A stretch of 64,000 nucleotides of DNA from positions 49,940-113,939 of IMG/VR virus record IMGVR_UViG_3300045988_136394; one strand, given 5' to 3'. The notes below the pieces were generated by a model. It was not told where the DNA came from. It did no database searches and was given only the letters and a program-made list of their open reading frames with translations. This document shows, one piece after another, positions 34,512 to 35,137 of the stretch (its first letter is position 1; each line of letters begins with the position of its first letter). The DNA comes from a virus. Made by a program: the position numbers and the translations under genes.

Positions 34512-34558
34512 AAATAAGCCCCCTTTTATTTTTTATTTAACTATGTTATAATTTTAGC

Positions 34559-34638
34559 GTAGCATAGTCGTAAGCCCTTATATTTTTTCATTCAACGAAC
34601 CTCTGCAAAATTGGCAATCGGAAACGGTTGCTTTTTTT
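34559..34638 (+). ncRNA. Putative small RNA unit 0
   Basis: Extended -10 promoter TGtTATAAT at 34544-34552. Terminator GCAAUCG-GAAA-CGGUUGC plus U7 at 34614-34638. Confidence 0.3.
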
Positions 34639-34662
34639 GCGCCCTGTTGATATAATTTAGAC

Positions 34663-34740
34663 ATTCACAGTCAGCGTTGATTGTTGGTAACTAAAAAGGG
34701 TCACAGAAGCGCAAATGCAACGCACATTTGCGTTTTTCTG
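34663..34740 (+). ncRNA. Putative small RNA unit 1
   Basis: Promoter TTGCTT-17-TGaTATAAT at 34628-34656. Terminator CGCAAATG/CATTTGCG plus a U-run at 34710-34740. Confidence 0.35.
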
Positions 34741-34805
34741 TTTTATATGATAAAATAAATACGGTACATATCAGTTTATCTCCCCAACGATAGGCTGATA
34801 TAGTA

Positions 34806-34829
34806 AAAAGCCCTGCGGGGCTTTTTATT
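34806..34829. terminator. Bidirectional intrinsic terminator
   Basis: AAAA-AGCCC-TGCG-GGGCT-TTTTT. Confidence 0.5.
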
Positions 34830-34868
34830 TTTGTTTACATTATACCACATGTGCGTTATAATAAATAT

Positions 34869-34957
34869 GGTACAAAATTAAACCGCCTTTTTATCATGTG
34901 ACGCAAAACAAGTTAAAAAGCAGCAGACAAAAGCAAAGTTAACGCTTTGCTTTTTCT
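34869..34957 (+). ncRNA. Putative small RNA unit 2
   Basis: Promoter TTTACA-17-TATAAT at 34834-34862. Terminator GCAAAG/CTTTGC plus U5 at 34931-34957. Confidence 0.3.
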
Positions 34958-34979
34958 GTTTTTATGCTATAATATTTAT

Positions 34980-35041
34980 GTGGCGTCAGCTCTCCTGTTG
35001 AATTAAAATAAAAGAAGCAATCATAAGAGGTTGCTTTTTTT
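34980..35041 (+). ncRNA. Putative small RNA unit 3
   Basis: Extended -10 promoter TGcTATAAT at 34965-34973. Terminator GCAAUC/GGUUGC plus U7 at 35017-35041. Confidence 0.3.
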
Positions 35042-35065
35042 GCGCCTTGTTGCTATAATTAAATA

Positions 35066-35137
35066 TGCAGAAGCTGCCCCTTCTCGCAATCCTTTTTAAA
35101 CAAAAAAACACCCTGCTTTTTAGCAGGGTGTTTTTTT
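35066..35137 (+). ncRNA. Putative small RNA unit 4, convergent with a small hydrophobic-peptide gene
   Basis: Promoter TTGCTT-17-TGcTATAAT at 35031-35059. Bidirectional terminator at 35101-35137. Confidence 0.35.
35101..35137. terminator. Bidirectional intrinsic terminator
   Basis: A7-CACCCTGC-TTTTTA-GCAGGGTG-T7. Confidence 0.6.

What the first reader, a model, noticed from the sequence alone, without database searches (positions are those of the whole stretch)
34544..35137. Array of five tandem plus-strand promoter, short RNA (60-90 nt) and terminator units
In a window otherwise transcribed on the minus strand, 34544-35137 holds five back-to-back plus-strand units. Each has an extended -10 promoter (TGnTATAAT) or a near-consensus -35/-10 pair, and each ends at a strong intrinsic terminator. 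Two of the terminators (GCAAUCG-GAAA-CGGUUGC-U7 and GCAAUC..GGUUGC-U7) supply the TTGCTT -35 hexamer of the next promoter, so terminator and promoter overlap. No ORF of useful length is present. Candidate roles are antisense or regulatory small RNAs, roadblocks to minus-strand read-through, type I antitoxins, or RNA decoys such as promoter-driven solitary repeat units of the RNA anti-CRISPR kind.
Basis: seen in the sequence. Interest (0 to 1): 0.75.

Follow-up and report, generated by a model that had tools for sequence, protein, structure and literature searches.

The report
Six small-RNA genes in phage
A very common human-gut phage carries, inside its tail-baseplate operon, a conserved row of six tiny self-contained genes (promoter, 60-90-nt RNA, terminator) that most likely make regulatory small RNAs whose targets are still unknown.

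Summary
In 34544-35137 (+), five extended -10 promoters (TGnTAnAAT) and one TTTACA-17-TATAAT promoter are each followed 45-125 nt later by an intrinsic terminator. These are the only such units on either strand of the 64-kb window; shuffles give 0.08.

The array lies in an accessory island: a perfect sigma-A-type promoter, a small HTH gene, a dUTPase-domain gene and a 36-aa membrane ORF. The island interrupts the baseplate operon of a ~50-kb myovirus-like gut phage. Distant relatives lack both island and array.

About 100 related contigs keep the array. The -10 elements, U2, U4 and terminators T2 and T4 vary far less than synonymous sites of the flanking genes. A 71%-identity relative keeps four units. 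Unit number ranges from 2 to 7, through recombination at shared terminator/promoter junctions.

No Rfam family matches, no coding ORF is present, and no conserved antisense target was found in the window. Most units expose C/U-rich, anti-Shine-Dalgarno-like motifs.

Best reading: a tandem set of phage small-RNA "morons" that act by base pairing. The function is inferred, not shown. Rivals are an insulator stack, a type I antitoxin (unit 6 with the 36-aa ORF), CRISPR-repeat decoys, and decayed cassettes.

The parts
34544..34552 (+). P1, extended -10 promoter TGTTATAAT with an A/T-rich upstream region
   Evidence: Invariant in 27 unique relatives. Kept as TGTTATAAT in L070.
34559..34639 (+). U1, predicted ~80-nt RNA. 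It has an unstructured CU-rich body (…UUUUUUCAUUC…ACCUCUGCAAAAUU) and terminator T1 (GCAAUCG-GAAA-CGGUUGC-U7, 34614-34638).
   Evidence: Its 3' module is shared with U5 variants and with the extra unit Ux of L009/L011.
34629..34656 (+). P2. The -35 TTGCTT lies inside the 3' arm and U-tract of T1, followed by a 16-nt spacer and the extended -10 TGATATAAT.
34662..34745 (+). U2, predicted ~84-nt RNA with a 5' hairpin (CAGUCA/UGAUUG), a single-stranded GGGUCACA stretch and terminator T2 (34705-34737 plus U-run)
   Evidence: Body pi 0.024 and T2 pi 0. The 5' CAUUCACA and GGGUCA motifs are kept in L070.
34748..34756 (+). P3, extended -10 TGATAAAAT (TGATAGAAT or TGATACAAT in relatives)
34763..34832 (+). 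U3, predicted ~70-nt RNA. A 13-bp hairpin presents the invariant loop UCUCCCCAAC, followed by bidirectional terminator T3 (34802-34829).
   Evidence: z -5.95. Stem variants keep pairing through U-A/U-G changes. Absent in L070.
34834..34862 (+). P4, TTTACA-17-TATAAT (11 of 12 consensus matches)
   Evidence: Kept in L070.
34869..34960 (+). U4, predicted ~92-nt RNA and the best conserved unit. Its body is CAAAAUUAAACCGCCUUUUUAUCAUGUGACGCAAAAC and its terminator is T4 (34929-34954).
   Evidence: Body pi 0.008 and T4 pi 0. It is 76-85% identical to the L070 copy, against 68-70% for the flanking CDS.
34965..34973 (+). P5, extended -10 TGCTATAAT
34980..35041 (+). U5, predicted ~62-nt RNA with a hairpin loop CUCUCCU and terminator T5 (GCAAUC-AUAAGA-GGUUGC-U7, 35017-35041). 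This is the most variable unit.
   Evidence: three allelic bodies. Interrupted by a TnpB IS in L004.
35032..35059 (+). P6. The -35 TTGCTT lies inside T5, followed by a 16-nt spacer and the extended -10 TGCTATAAT.
35066..35138 (+). U6, predicted ~73-nt RNA with a 5' hairpin that exposes GCUGCCCCUUCUC. Its terminator T6 (35102-35137) is a perfect 16-bp palindrome flanked by A7 and T7. T6 is shared with the convergent 36-aa ORF.
   Evidence: z -7.7; I2. The C-rich motif is invariant. L070 keeps the CCCC loop on a different stem.
35136..35246 (-). 36-aa hydrophobic ORF (MDKFFTVLKENGLIMNFVFFCVCFLIIGAGLGQMTK) with the strong SD GAGAGGGGGG. It is the last gene of the accessory operon and converges on U6.
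   Evidence: Conserved in relatives with conservative substitutions and in L070. No family hit.
35265..35299 (+). Seventh plus-strand terminator-like hairpin (AACGCUGU…ACAGCGUU-U-run), upstream of the 36-aa ORF's SD. It would stop plus-strand read-through that runs antisense to that ORF.
   Evidence: The equivalent hairpin in L070 has a different stem sequence. Its T-run is deleted in the L076 lineage.
35357..36301 (-). 314-aa protein with a C-terminal dUTPase domain, part of the accessory operon next to the array
38754..38828 (-). Terminator (38828-38807) plus a perfect TTGACA-17-TATAAT promoter (38782-38754). This cassette starts the accessory operon, which ends at T6.
   Evidence: The same cassette is repeated at 24786, 61991 and 63983.
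34137..34511 (-). 124-aa conserved baseplate-module gene immediately downstream (in minus sense) of the array. It was used as the anchor for comparative work.

Best explanation
The interval is a tandem array of six independent small-RNA genes, which I call 'RNA morons'. Each has its own sigma-A-type promoter (five extended -10, one -35/-10) and its own intrinsic terminator, and should give discrete plus-strand RNAs of about 60-90 nt.

The array belongs to an accessory island inserted in the baseplate operon of an abundant ~50-kb human-gut myovirus-like phage of a Firmicutes-like host. It lies directly behind, and converges on, a strongly promoted moron operon (HTH gene, dUTPase-domain gene, 36-aa membrane ORF).

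The units are paralogous cassettes. They are gained, lost and swapped by homologous recombination at shared terminator/promoter junctions.

The most likely mode of action is trans base pairing. Unpaired C/U-rich, anti-Shine-Dalgarno-like motifs sit in loops or next to the terminator: U1 CCUCU, U3 CUCCCC, U4 CCGCCUUUUU, U5 CUCUCCU, U6 GCCCCUUCUC. They would occlude G-rich ribosome-binding sites of host mRNAs or of the phage's own mRNAs, as C-rich/UCCC-loop sRNAs do in Firmicutes.

Shown: the anatomy, the non-randomness, the conservation and the cassette behaviour. Inferred: that the RNAs are made, and how they act.
For: Non-randomness: the only promoter-to-terminator units in the 64 kb are these.

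Structure: the predicted RNAs have stable terminators and 5' hairpins.

Non-coding: there is no credible ORF and no Rfam family at gathering score.

Conservation:
- The array is present in about 100 related gut contigs, mostly with the order U1-U6.
- Nucleotide diversity: -10 hexamers 0.018, TG 0.007, U4 body 0.008, U2 body 0.024, T2 and T4 0. Third codon positions of the flanking genes give 0.07-0.13.
- A relative with only 71% protein identity (L070) keeps four units with intact extended -10 or -35/-10 promoters. It keeps CU-rich motifs even where the terminators have been replaced. Its U4 is 76-85% identical, against 68-70% for the neighbouring CDS.
- The U6 C-rich motif stays exposed on a different stem in L070. 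The U3 loop UCUCCCCAAC is invariant while its stem changes compatibly.

Moron status: relatives at 55-58% identity have an uninterrupted baseplate operon with neither island nor array.

Cassette behaviour: versions with 2, 4, 5, 6 and 7 units exist. L075 is exactly what recombination between the 51-nt junction repeats would produce.

Anti-SD signal: U4, U5 and U6 pair with this phage's G-rich translation-initiation regions better than dinucleotide shuffles do, z -2.2 to -2.6.

Precedents: short prophage sRNAs convergent to moron CDSs, with conserved 3' and variable 5' parts (PMC4104026), and the unpaired C-rich/UCCC motifs of Firmicutes sRNAs (PMC2790875 and the RoxS/RsaE papers listed).
Against: - There is no expression data.
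- The relatives are close, so true compensatory covariation is almost absent. Low diversity in U2 and U4 could partly reflect recent recombination.
- No conserved target was found. Matches of 11-14 nt to the rest of the window are as frequent on the control strand. The best hit, a 13-nt match of U5 to the SD of gene 40774-41487, is broken without compensation in relatives.
- The anti-SD enrichment is modest and is absent for U1-U3 against this phage's genes.
- Individual units tolerate disruption: an IS in U5 (L004), a 160-nt insertion in U1 (L112), loss of T6 (L080) and loss of U2-U5 (L075).
- The host is unknown.
Confidence: 0.45

Rival explanations
1. The array is a transcriptional insulator. 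A stack of mostly bidirectional terminators, reinforced by convergent promoters, keeps transcription from the very strong accessory-operon promoter (38782-38754) out of the downstream baseplate genes. It also keeps plus-strand transcription out of the moron operon. On this view the short RNAs are by-products with no function of their own.
For: - The array sits exactly between the end of a moron operon driven by a perfect TTGACA-17-TATAAT promoter and essential late genes.
- T3, T5 and T6 (clearly) and T1 and T4 (weakly) have A-tracts upstream, so they could also terminate minus-strand RNA.
- Island and array occur together, and island-less relatives lack the array.
- The number of units is flexible and single units can be disrupted.
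- Terminator-plus-promoter cassettes are a general building block of this genome.
Against: - An insulator needs no promoters, yet the -10 elements are the best conserved positions: pi 0.018 and 0.007, against 0.053 in adjacent spacers. They are retained in L070.
- The RNA bodies U2 and U4 are far more conserved than synonymous sites.
- Loop motifs are invariant while stems change.
- Efficient minus-strand termination would cut the downstream baseplate genes off from any late promoter. No good minus-strand promoter lies between the array and the 124-aa gene.
- The T-tracts are consistently longer on the plus side.
Confidence: 0.2
2. Unit 6, and perhaps its paralogues, is the antitoxin RNA of a type I toxin-antitoxin-like pair whose toxin is the 36-aa hydrophobic peptide. 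The two RNAs converge and overlap at the shared bidirectional terminator, in the manner of par RNAI/RNAII. The C-rich motif of U6 pairs with the G-rich SD of the peptide mRNA.
For: - The 36-aa ORF has one hydrophobic segment and a strong SD, and is conserved at the protein level.
- U6 always accompanies it, also in L070 and in the two-unit array of L075.
- The two share a perfect palindromic terminator.
- U6 5'-CCCCUUCUC-3' can form 9 bp (one of them G-U) with the SD GAGAGGGGG. The ORF ranks 4th of 105 translation-initiation regions for U6.
- A conserved plus-strand terminator at 35265-35299 would end a read-through antisense RNA exactly after it has covered the ORF and its SD.
Against: - Rfam antitoxin models score far below threshold: RatA 21.4 against 49, OrzO-P 19 against 60, ohsC 19 against 50.
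- The peptide matches no toxin family.
- The ORF's putative own promoter is deleted in the L076-L079 lineage, so there it is simply the last gene of the dUTPase operon.
- The predicted SD sequestration in the mRNA relies on weak G-U pairs.
- The CCCC:GGGG pairing is generic in a phage where about 40% of genes use G-rich SDs. The pairing beyond CCCC is lost in L070.
- This reading does not explain the other five units.
Confidence: 0.1
3. The units are anti-defence decoy RNAs expressed early from host-type promoters. Examples would be CRISPR-repeat mimics (Racr or crRNA-like RNAs) or sponges for host sRNAs or RNA-guided defence systems. Each cassette would have a different specificity.
For: - Each unit is a promoter-driven, terminator-bounded short structured RNA carried by a phage, as described for Racrs (abstract of PMC10651486) and for phage anti-sRNAs (PMC4104026).
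- Cassette-like gain, loss and allelic replacement, with 2-7 units and three U5 alleles, is the pattern expected for arms-race cargo.
- The array lies in an accessory island.
Against: - The defining feature, similarity to a host CRISPR repeat or host sRNA, could not be tested because no host genome was found.
- The units share no repeat-like core.
- No Cas, CRISPR array or known defence or anti-defence protein is nearby.
- The shared hairpin GCAAUCGGAAACGGUUGC is a generic terminator that also occurs in unrelated phages.
Confidence: 0.1
4. The units are decayed moron cassettes. Promoter/terminator shells were left behind after small protein genes were deleted, and they persist only because they are harmless.
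For: - The genome is built from promoter-gene-terminator cassettes.
- Single units can be lost or interrupted.
- The overall diversity of the array (0.049) is not far below that of synonymous sites.
Against: - None of about 100 related arrays holds a coding gene in any unit, other than IS insertions.
- The -10 elements, U2, U4, T2 and T4 are under clear constraint.
- Four units survive in a lineage whose flanking CDS is only 68-70% identical at the DNA level.
Confidence: 0.1

Closest known systems
Prophage-encoded short sRNAs at moron insertion sites of lambdoid EHEC phages (anti-sRNAs AsxR/AgvB; Tree et al. 2014, PMC4104026). The related Pas sRNAs (bioRxiv 10.64898/2026.05.13.724894) belong with them.
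   Same: - Short (50-90 nt), terminator-bounded phage sRNAs.
- Located between a moron CDS and the next conserved phage ORF, and convergent to the moron CDS.
- They form paralogous groups with a conserved 3' part and a variable 5' part. The same pattern is seen here in U1, the U5 variants and Ux.
   Different: - Here six to seven units lie head-to-tail on one strand, each with its own consensus promoter, rather than as convergent pairs.
- The host is Firmicutes-like (extended -10 promoters, SD-dependent genes), so Hfq dependence is not expected.
- There is no sequence similarity.
- Targets and expression are unknown.
C-rich / UCCC-motif base-pairing sRNAs of Firmicutes: the RsaE/RoxS and Rsa families (PMC2790875 and the papers listed), and the tandem LhrC1-4 genes of Listeria (from my own knowledge)
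   Same: - Short RNAs with unpaired C-rich motifs, in hairpin loops or just 5' of the terminator, suited to pair with G-rich SDs.
- LhrC is also a tandem set of paralogous sRNA genes, each with its own promoter and terminator.
   Different: - Not homologous: the Rfam RsaE model scores 27.9 bits against a gathering score of 79, and there is no LhrC hit.
- The six units differ from one another rather than being near-identical paralogues.
- They are phage-borne.
Morons of tailed phages (Juhala et al. 2000, as cited in PMC4104026)
   Same: Autonomous promoter-gene-terminator units inserted between genes of a late operon and absent from related phages.
   Different: Classical morons encode proteins. 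Here the 'genes' are 40-60-nt non-coding bodies, six in a row, on the strand opposite to the operon they interrupt.
Type I toxin-antitoxin loci with convergent RNAs that share a bidirectional terminator (par Fst RNAI/RNAII; txpA/RatA; bsrG/SR4). The comparison rests on my own knowledge plus the Rfam models.
   Same: A small hydrophobic ORF converges on a short RNA and overlaps it at the 3' end. The RNA is potentially complementary to the ORF's SD.
   Different: - The ORF is the distal gene of an operon, and in some relatives it has no promoter of its own.
- There is no family-level similarity for either the peptide or the RNA.
- Only one of the six units fits.
RNA anti-CRISPRs (Racrs, solitary repeat units; PMC10651486)
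   Same: Phage-encoded short structured RNAs driven by their own promoters.
   Different: - No demonstrated resemblance to any CRISPR repeat.
- The units are heterogeneous and each ends in a classical intrinsic terminator.
- The host and its CRISPR systems are unknown.

Membership tests
Phage moron (autonomous transcription unit inserted in a late operon) | Own promoter and own factor-independent terminator flanking the insert | tested here: met
   There are six plus-strand promoter/terminator pairs. The neighbouring protein-coding moron operon has a perfect promoter at 38782-38754 and terminator T6.
Phage moron (autonomous transcription unit inserted in a late operon) | Lies between two genes that are adjacent in related phages | tested here: met
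   In L066, L068 and L069 the 124-aa gene directly follows the Apex or DUF7338 genes of the baseplate operon, with neither island nor array.
Trans-acting base-pairing sRNA (C-rich/UCCC type of Firmicutes) | Discrete, stable small transcript | not testable with these tools
   Only promoter, terminator and folding predictions are available. There are no RNA data.
Trans-acting base-pairing sRNA (C-rich/UCCC type of Firmicutes) | Unpaired, conserved C/U-rich seed complementary to ribosome-binding sites | tested here: inconclusive
   - C/U-rich motifs are present in five of the six units and are invariant in relatives.
- The U6 motif stays exposed on a different stem in L070.
- Complementarity to this phage's G-rich SDs exceeds shuffles for U4, U5 and U6 only, z -2.2 to -2.6.
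Trans-acting base-pairing sRNA (C-rich/UCCC type of Firmicutes) | Identified target with conserved or co-varying pairing | tested here: not met
   No match in the window exceeds chance. The 13-nt pairing of U5 with gene 40774-41487 is lost without compensation in relatives. Host targets cannot be tested.
Rfam families RsaE/RoxS, SurA, RatA, OrzO-P, ohsC and the rest of Rfam 15 | Covariance-model score at or above the gathering threshold | tested here: not met
   Best scores against thresholds: SurA 39.6 vs 100, RsaE 27.9 vs 79, RatA 21.4 vs 49, OrzO-P 19.2 vs 60. The only hit in the window at gathering score is RAGATH-18, at 36418-36490 and outside the array.
Type I toxin-antitoxin (antisense RNA plus small hydrophobic toxin) | Small hydrophobic peptide gene overlapped by an antisense RNA | tested here: met
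   The 36-aa ORF at 35136-35246 (-) and U6 (+) overlap across T6, 35102-35137. The arrangement is kept in L070 and L075. The RNA itself is a prediction.
Type I toxin-antitoxin (antisense RNA plus small hydrophobic toxin) | Toxin is an autonomous gene with its own promoter and a structured mRNA that limits translation | tested here: inconclusive
   A weak TTTCAA-17-TACTAT promoter is possible (read from the sequence). That region is deleted in L076-L079. The predicted SD pairing is weak and rich in G-U pairs.
Type I toxin-antitoxin (antisense RNA plus small hydrophobic toxin) | Toxicity of the peptide and its neutralisation by the RNA | not testable with these tools
   This needs expression experiments.
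RNA anti-CRISPR (Racr / solitary repeat unit) | Sequence and structure mimic a CRISPR repeat of the host | not testable with these tools
   The host was not found in 185,579 species-representative genomes, either by DNA pattern or by protein. No CRISPR array is present in the window or the fetched loci.
RNA anti-CRISPR (Racr / solitary repeat unit) | Stand-alone, promoter-driven short RNA in a viral genome | tested here: met
   This feature is not specific to Racrs.
Prophage anti-sRNAs (AsxR/AgvB type) | Short sRNA genes between a moron CDS and a conserved phage ORF, convergent to the moron, with a conserved 3' part and a variable 5' part | tested here: met
   For position and orientation. The shared 3' module of U1, the U5 variants and Ux, with different 5' parts, is shown. 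The family description is from PMC4104026.
Prophage anti-sRNAs (AsxR/AgvB type) | Pairs with and antagonises a core-genome sRNA; binds Hfq | not testable with these tools
   The host and its sRNAs are unknown.

The most novel reading that the evidence does not exclude
The array is a modular 'RNA anti-defence / takeover island'. It would be a battery of early-expressed decoy or silencing RNAs, each cassette with its own specificity. Possible specificities are CRISPR-repeat or guide-RNA mimics, sponges for host sRNAs, or anti-SD RNAs that selectively silence the G-rich ribosome-binding sites of this phage family and so exclude superinfecting relatives. Cassettes would be shuffled between phage genomes by recombination at the conserved terminator/promoter junctions, a non-coding analogue of anti-CRISPR gene clusters.
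Probability: 0.12. Interest if true: 0.85.

Novelty: new variant of a known kind. Interest (0 to 1): 0.55.

Why it matters
Phage-encoded regulatory RNAs are known mainly from E. coli prophages, usually one or two at a time. Here a phage found in hundreds of human-gut metagenomes carries six or seven autonomous small-RNA genes in one 600-nt block, arranged as exchangeable cassettes.

If the RNAs are expressed, the array offers three things:
- A compact, easily cloned system for studying how gut phages use RNA to control host or phage translation, or to counter defences, in Firmicutes.
- A natural example of modular evolution of sRNA genes.
- A ready set of very compact, well-insulated promoter/terminator parts.

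If the RNAs prove to be mere by-products, the array is instead an unusually elaborate natural transcriptional insulator.

Tried and rejected
1. Rfam: nothing in the array reaches a gathering score. The sub-threshold hits (SurA, Phe leader, STnc370, RsaE, RatA and others) are driven by the terminators.
2. DNA similarity of the array to 50,697 deposited phages: none. Only unannotated 'Bacteriophage sp.' fragments from human faeces match other parts of the window.
3. The hairpin GCAAUCGGAAACGGUUGC as a special motif: rejected. The same hairpin plus T-run is an ordinary gene terminator in unrelated phages.
4. Antisense targets inside the window: the striking 13-nt perfect match of U5 to the SD and start of baseplate gene 40774-41487 is not conserved or compensated in relatives. 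Matches of 11-14 nt are equally common on the control strand.
5. U6 pairing with the SD of the island's first cassette (AAGGGGCAG): that cassette is present in only some lineages that carry the same U6, so I did not pursue it.
6. Host identification: the array pattern and the 124-aa protein found nothing in the GTDB representative genomes, and both scans are now used.
7. Homologues of the 36-aa peptide: the query is too short for two tools, tblastn against phages finds nothing, and a degenerate DNA pattern finds only the same phage group.
8. Paralogues of the units elsewhere in the window or in distant relatives: none by nhmmer.
9. Covariation: the relatives are too close. Only compatible one-sided changes and replacements of terminator blocks were seen.
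10. Defence and anti-defence models (PADLOC) on the island proteins: none.
11. Other non-coding gaps in the module (32581-32881 and 40343-40774): they hold small ORFs, not RNA units.
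Full report
**What is in the sequence**

Between the start of a 124-aa gene (34137-34511, minus strand) and the stop of a 36-aa ORF (35136-35246, minus strand) lie 624 nt with no credible ORF. On the plus strand I find six promoter-RNA-terminator units, not five.

| Unit | Promoter | Terminator |
|---|---|---|
| 1 | TGTTATAAT, 34544-52 | T1, 34613-39 |
| 2 | TTGCTT-16-TGATATAAT, 34629-56 | T2, 34705-45 |
| 3 | TGATAAAAT, 34748-56 | T3, 34802-32 |
| 4 | TTTACA-17-TATAAT, 34834-62 | T4, 34929-60 |
| 5 | TGCTATAAT, 34965-73 | T5, 35017-41 |
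| 6 | TTGCTT-16-TGCTATAAT, 35032-59 | T6, 35102-37 |

These two terminator/promoter junctions are a 51-nt direct repeat, 82% identical.

**Is it more than chance?**

Four of the six plus-strand TGNTATAAT matches in the whole 64 kb are in this interval. I also scanned for 'TGnTAnAAT followed by a G+C-containing hairpin and a T-run within 45-125 nt'. That scan finds five units in the whole window on either strand, all of them here and on the plus strand. Block-shuffled windows give a mean of 0.08 and a maximum of 1. The sixth unit uses an 11-of-12 -35/-10 pair.

Each predicted RNA (62-92 nt) folds into a strong terminator. Most also have a 5' hairpin, and the folding z-scores run from -1.6 to -7.7.

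**Context**

The window from about 24.5 to 64 kb is most of a ~50-kb myovirus-like genome, with nearly all genes on the minus strand. The gene order is terminase, portal, protease, major head protein, sheath, tape measure, baseplate hub, baseplate J and fibres.

The phage is very common in human-gut metagenomes. The 124-aa protein is indexed in 980 blocks of the collection, and contigs top out at 50-52 kb and are circularly permuted. Extended -10 promoters and SD-dependent genes point to a Firmicutes-like host. The host itself was not found in the GTDB representative genomes.

The array is part of an accessory island that splits the baseplate module. Reading along the minus strand, the island contains:
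- a terminator (38828-38807) and a perfect TTGACA-17-TATAAT promoter (38782-38754);
- an 86-aa HTH-like ORF;
- an IS607-like element (36353-38375) that only this window carries. Relatives join 36352 directly to 38376;
- a dUTPase-domain gene (35357-36301);
- the 36-aa hydrophobic ORF, which ends at T6.

Relatives whose 124-aa protein is only 55-58% identical have an uninterrupted baseplate operon, with neither island nor array. The island therefore meets the definition of a moron, and the six RNA units are moron-like units on the opposite strand.

**Conservation and variation**

About 100 fetched loci from IMG/VR, ENA, Logan and JGI carry the array, mostly in the order U1-U6.

Nucleotide diversity in 27 unique sequences:

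| Feature | Diversity (pi) |
|---|---|
| -10 hexamers | 0.018 |
| TG of the extended -10 | 0.007 |
| Promoter spacers | 0.053 |
| U4 body | 0.008 |
| U2 body | 0.024 |
| T2 and T4 | 0 |
| Third codon positions, three flanking genes | 0.07-0.13 |
| U5 body | 0.113 |
| U6 body (variation concentrated in its 3' part) | 0.073 |
| T6 | 0.122 |

The most divergent island-bearing relative is L070, whose 124-aa protein is 71% identical. It keeps four units, U1', U2', U4' and U6', with promoters TGTTATAAT, TGATATAAT, TTTACA-17-TATAAT and TGATAGAAT. Several of its terminators have been replaced by unrelated hairpins, while the CU-rich body motifs persist. Its U4 unit is 76-85% identical to the window's, against 68-70% for the adjacent coding sequence.

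Loop motifs are fixed while stems move:
- The U3 loop UCUCCCCAAC is invariant, and its stem changes through U-A/U-G alternatives.
- U6 keeps GCUGCCCC exposed, on the stem GAAG/CUUC in the window and on AAGCUG/CAGCUU in L070.

True compensatory covariation is almost absent, because the relatives are close.

**Cassette behaviour**

- U1, some U5 alleles and an extra unit (Ux, in L009 and L011) share the 3' module CAAAAUU(A/G)GCAAYYGG(A/C)AACGGUUGC-U7 and have different 5' parts.
- U2 and U6 share their promoters through the junction repeat. U3 and U4 share their start regions.
- Arrays with 2, 4, 5, 6 and 7 units exist. The two-unit array of L075 is exactly what recombination between the two junction repeats would leave.
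- Single units tolerate damage: a TnpB-only IS lies directly after the -10 of P5 in L004, a 160-nt MITE-like insert lies in U1 of L112, and T6 is lost in L080.

**How it most likely works**

I take the units to be real small-RNA genes with roughly 0.8 confidence.

Five of the six bodies carry unpaired C/U-rich motifs that resemble the anti-SD sequence: U1 CCUCU, U3 CUCCCC, U4 CCGCCUUUUU, U5 CUCUCCU and U6 GCCCCUUCUC. This phage is unusual in using G-rich SDs (AAGGGGG) in about 40% of its genes. The second phage in the window uses GGAGG instead. U4, U5 and U6 pair with this phage's initiation regions better than dinucleotide shuffles do, z -2.2 to -2.6; U1-U3 do not.

This matches the design of the C-rich/UCCC-loop sRNAs of Firmicutes (PMC2790875 and the RoxS/RsaE papers listed). 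The position matches the short prophage sRNAs that lie convergent to moron CDSs and have conserved 3' and variable 5' parts (PMC4104026).

I therefore favour trans base pairing to ribosome-binding sites of host mRNAs or of the phage's own mRNAs. The mechanism is inferred. No conserved target was found.

**Rivals**

- *Insulator stack.* T3, T5 and T6, and weakly T1 and T4, are bidirectional, and the array separates a very strong accessory promoter from the late genes. However, the promoters and the U2 and U4 bodies are under constraint. Efficient minus-strand termination would also orphan the downstream baseplate genes.
- *Type I antitoxin, U6 only.* The convergent hydrophobic 36-aa ORF, the shared palindromic terminator, a possible 9-bp pairing with its SD, and a further plus-strand terminator at 35265-35299 that would end an antisense read-through all fit. 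Against it, there are no family matches, the ORF lacks its own promoter in some relatives, and the pairing is generic.
- *Racr-type or other decoy RNAs.* This is untestable without the host. Nothing in the units is repeat-like, and the shared hairpin is a generic terminator.
- *Decayed cassettes.* This is contradicted by the constraint on sequence and by the absence of any coding version among about 100 arrays.

**Comparison with what is known, and novelty**

The array belongs to no Rfam family and has no counterpart among deposited phage genomes. It works like phage sRNA morons. Its architecture differs: six to seven autonomous, heterogeneous sRNA cassettes lie head-to-tail on the strand opposite to a structural operon, in a gut Firmicutes-type phage, with overlapping terminator/promoter junctions that double as recombination sites. 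I found no description of this architecture. I class it as a new variant of a known kind.

**Verdict**

Interest is moderate (0.55): the feature is a real, conserved and experimentally tractable RNA gene array in an abundant gut phage, but without expression data, a host or a target.

Noticed in passing
window 36353-38375 (TnpA 37656-38324, TnpB 36539-37702, RAGATH-18 36418-36490, all minus strand): An IS607-like element (MerR-type HTH plus serine recombinase TnpA, and TnpB) is inserted in the island in this window only; relatives join 36352 directly to 38376. The only Rfam hit in the window at gathering score, RAGATH-18 (69.8 bits), lies just 3' of tnpB. It is probably part of the element's guide (omega/re) RNA.
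   Followed up: partly
window 24833-24758, 38828-38754, 62045-61963, 63983-63955 (minus strand): A cassette is repeated four times: a terminator hairpin (GCAGGG…CCCTGC), a perfect TTGACA-17-TATAAT promoter and a fixed 5'UTR (ATAGACAAGAGGTAAG…AAAGGG…). It heads different small genes in different relatives. It is probably the phage's early-promoter module and a boundary for mosaic exchange.
   Followed up: partly
window 1-~24000: The first 24 kb is a second, different myovirus-like structural module: terminase 15872-17143, portal, major head protein 11114-12193, sheath 7775-9109, tape measure 4974-6689, and its own dUTPase 18083-18604. Its GC is about 0.30 and its SDs are GGAGG, whereas the array-bearing phage has GC 0.37-0.46 and AAGGGGG SDs. 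The window is either two tandem prophages or a chimeric contig.
   Followed up: partly
window 60080-60424 (-); L080 480-908: A 114-aa protein scores just below threshold for Pfam Phage_ProQ_C_like (23.2 bits against a cut-off of 27). An island gene of relative L080 reaches 27.0. This could be an RNA-binding partner for the small RNAs, but that was not tested.
   Followed up: no
L113 4360-5530 (same phage, beyond the window's right end): The ~1.2-kb early control region holds two more promoter / short transcript / terminator units without an ORF: P 4984-4956 to T 4846-4815, and P 4668-4641 to T 4468-4437. They lie on the strand equivalent to the window's plus strand. A G+C-rich, possibly structured segment lies at 5200-5440. 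There is no Rfam match.
   Followed up: partly
L004 2059-3534; L112 (insert in U1); L058, L059, L064, L114: The island and its surroundings are a hotspot for IS200/IS605-family elements. A TnpB-only IS lies directly after the -10 of P5 in L004. A 160-nt MITE-like insert lies inside U1 in L112. Further TnpB or Y1-TnpA copies flank the island in other contigs.
   Followed up: partly
window 35118-35121 (loop of T6): The tetraloop of the perfectly palindromic terminator T6 is TTTT in some relatives and AAAA in others, as if the hairpin had been inverted. This fits selection on a bidirectional hairpin rather than on its sequence.
   Followed up: no
window 34839-34847 (minus strand): A minus-strand extended -10 (TGGTATAAT) lies back-to-back with P4 and would fire straight into the reverse side of T3. 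The TG is lost (TAGTATAAT) in most relatives. Its significance is unclear.
   Followed up: no
window 24900-64000, upstream of start codons: About 40% of this phage's genes use G-rich Shine-Dalgarno sequences (AAGGGGG[C/T]) rather than GGAGG. The neighbouring phage in the same window almost never does.
   Followed up: partly
window 34986-34998 versus 41489-41501: U5 contains a 13-nt perfect antisense match (UCAGCUCUCCUGU) to the SD and start region of baseplate gene 40774-41487. The match is broken in relatives without compensation, so it is probably chance.
   Followed up: yes
window 35357-36301 (-): The dUTPase-domain protein is mosaic. Several relatives share only residues ~118-314 and have a different N-terminal part. 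In L070 the gene is split by an HNH endonuclease gene.
   Followed up: no
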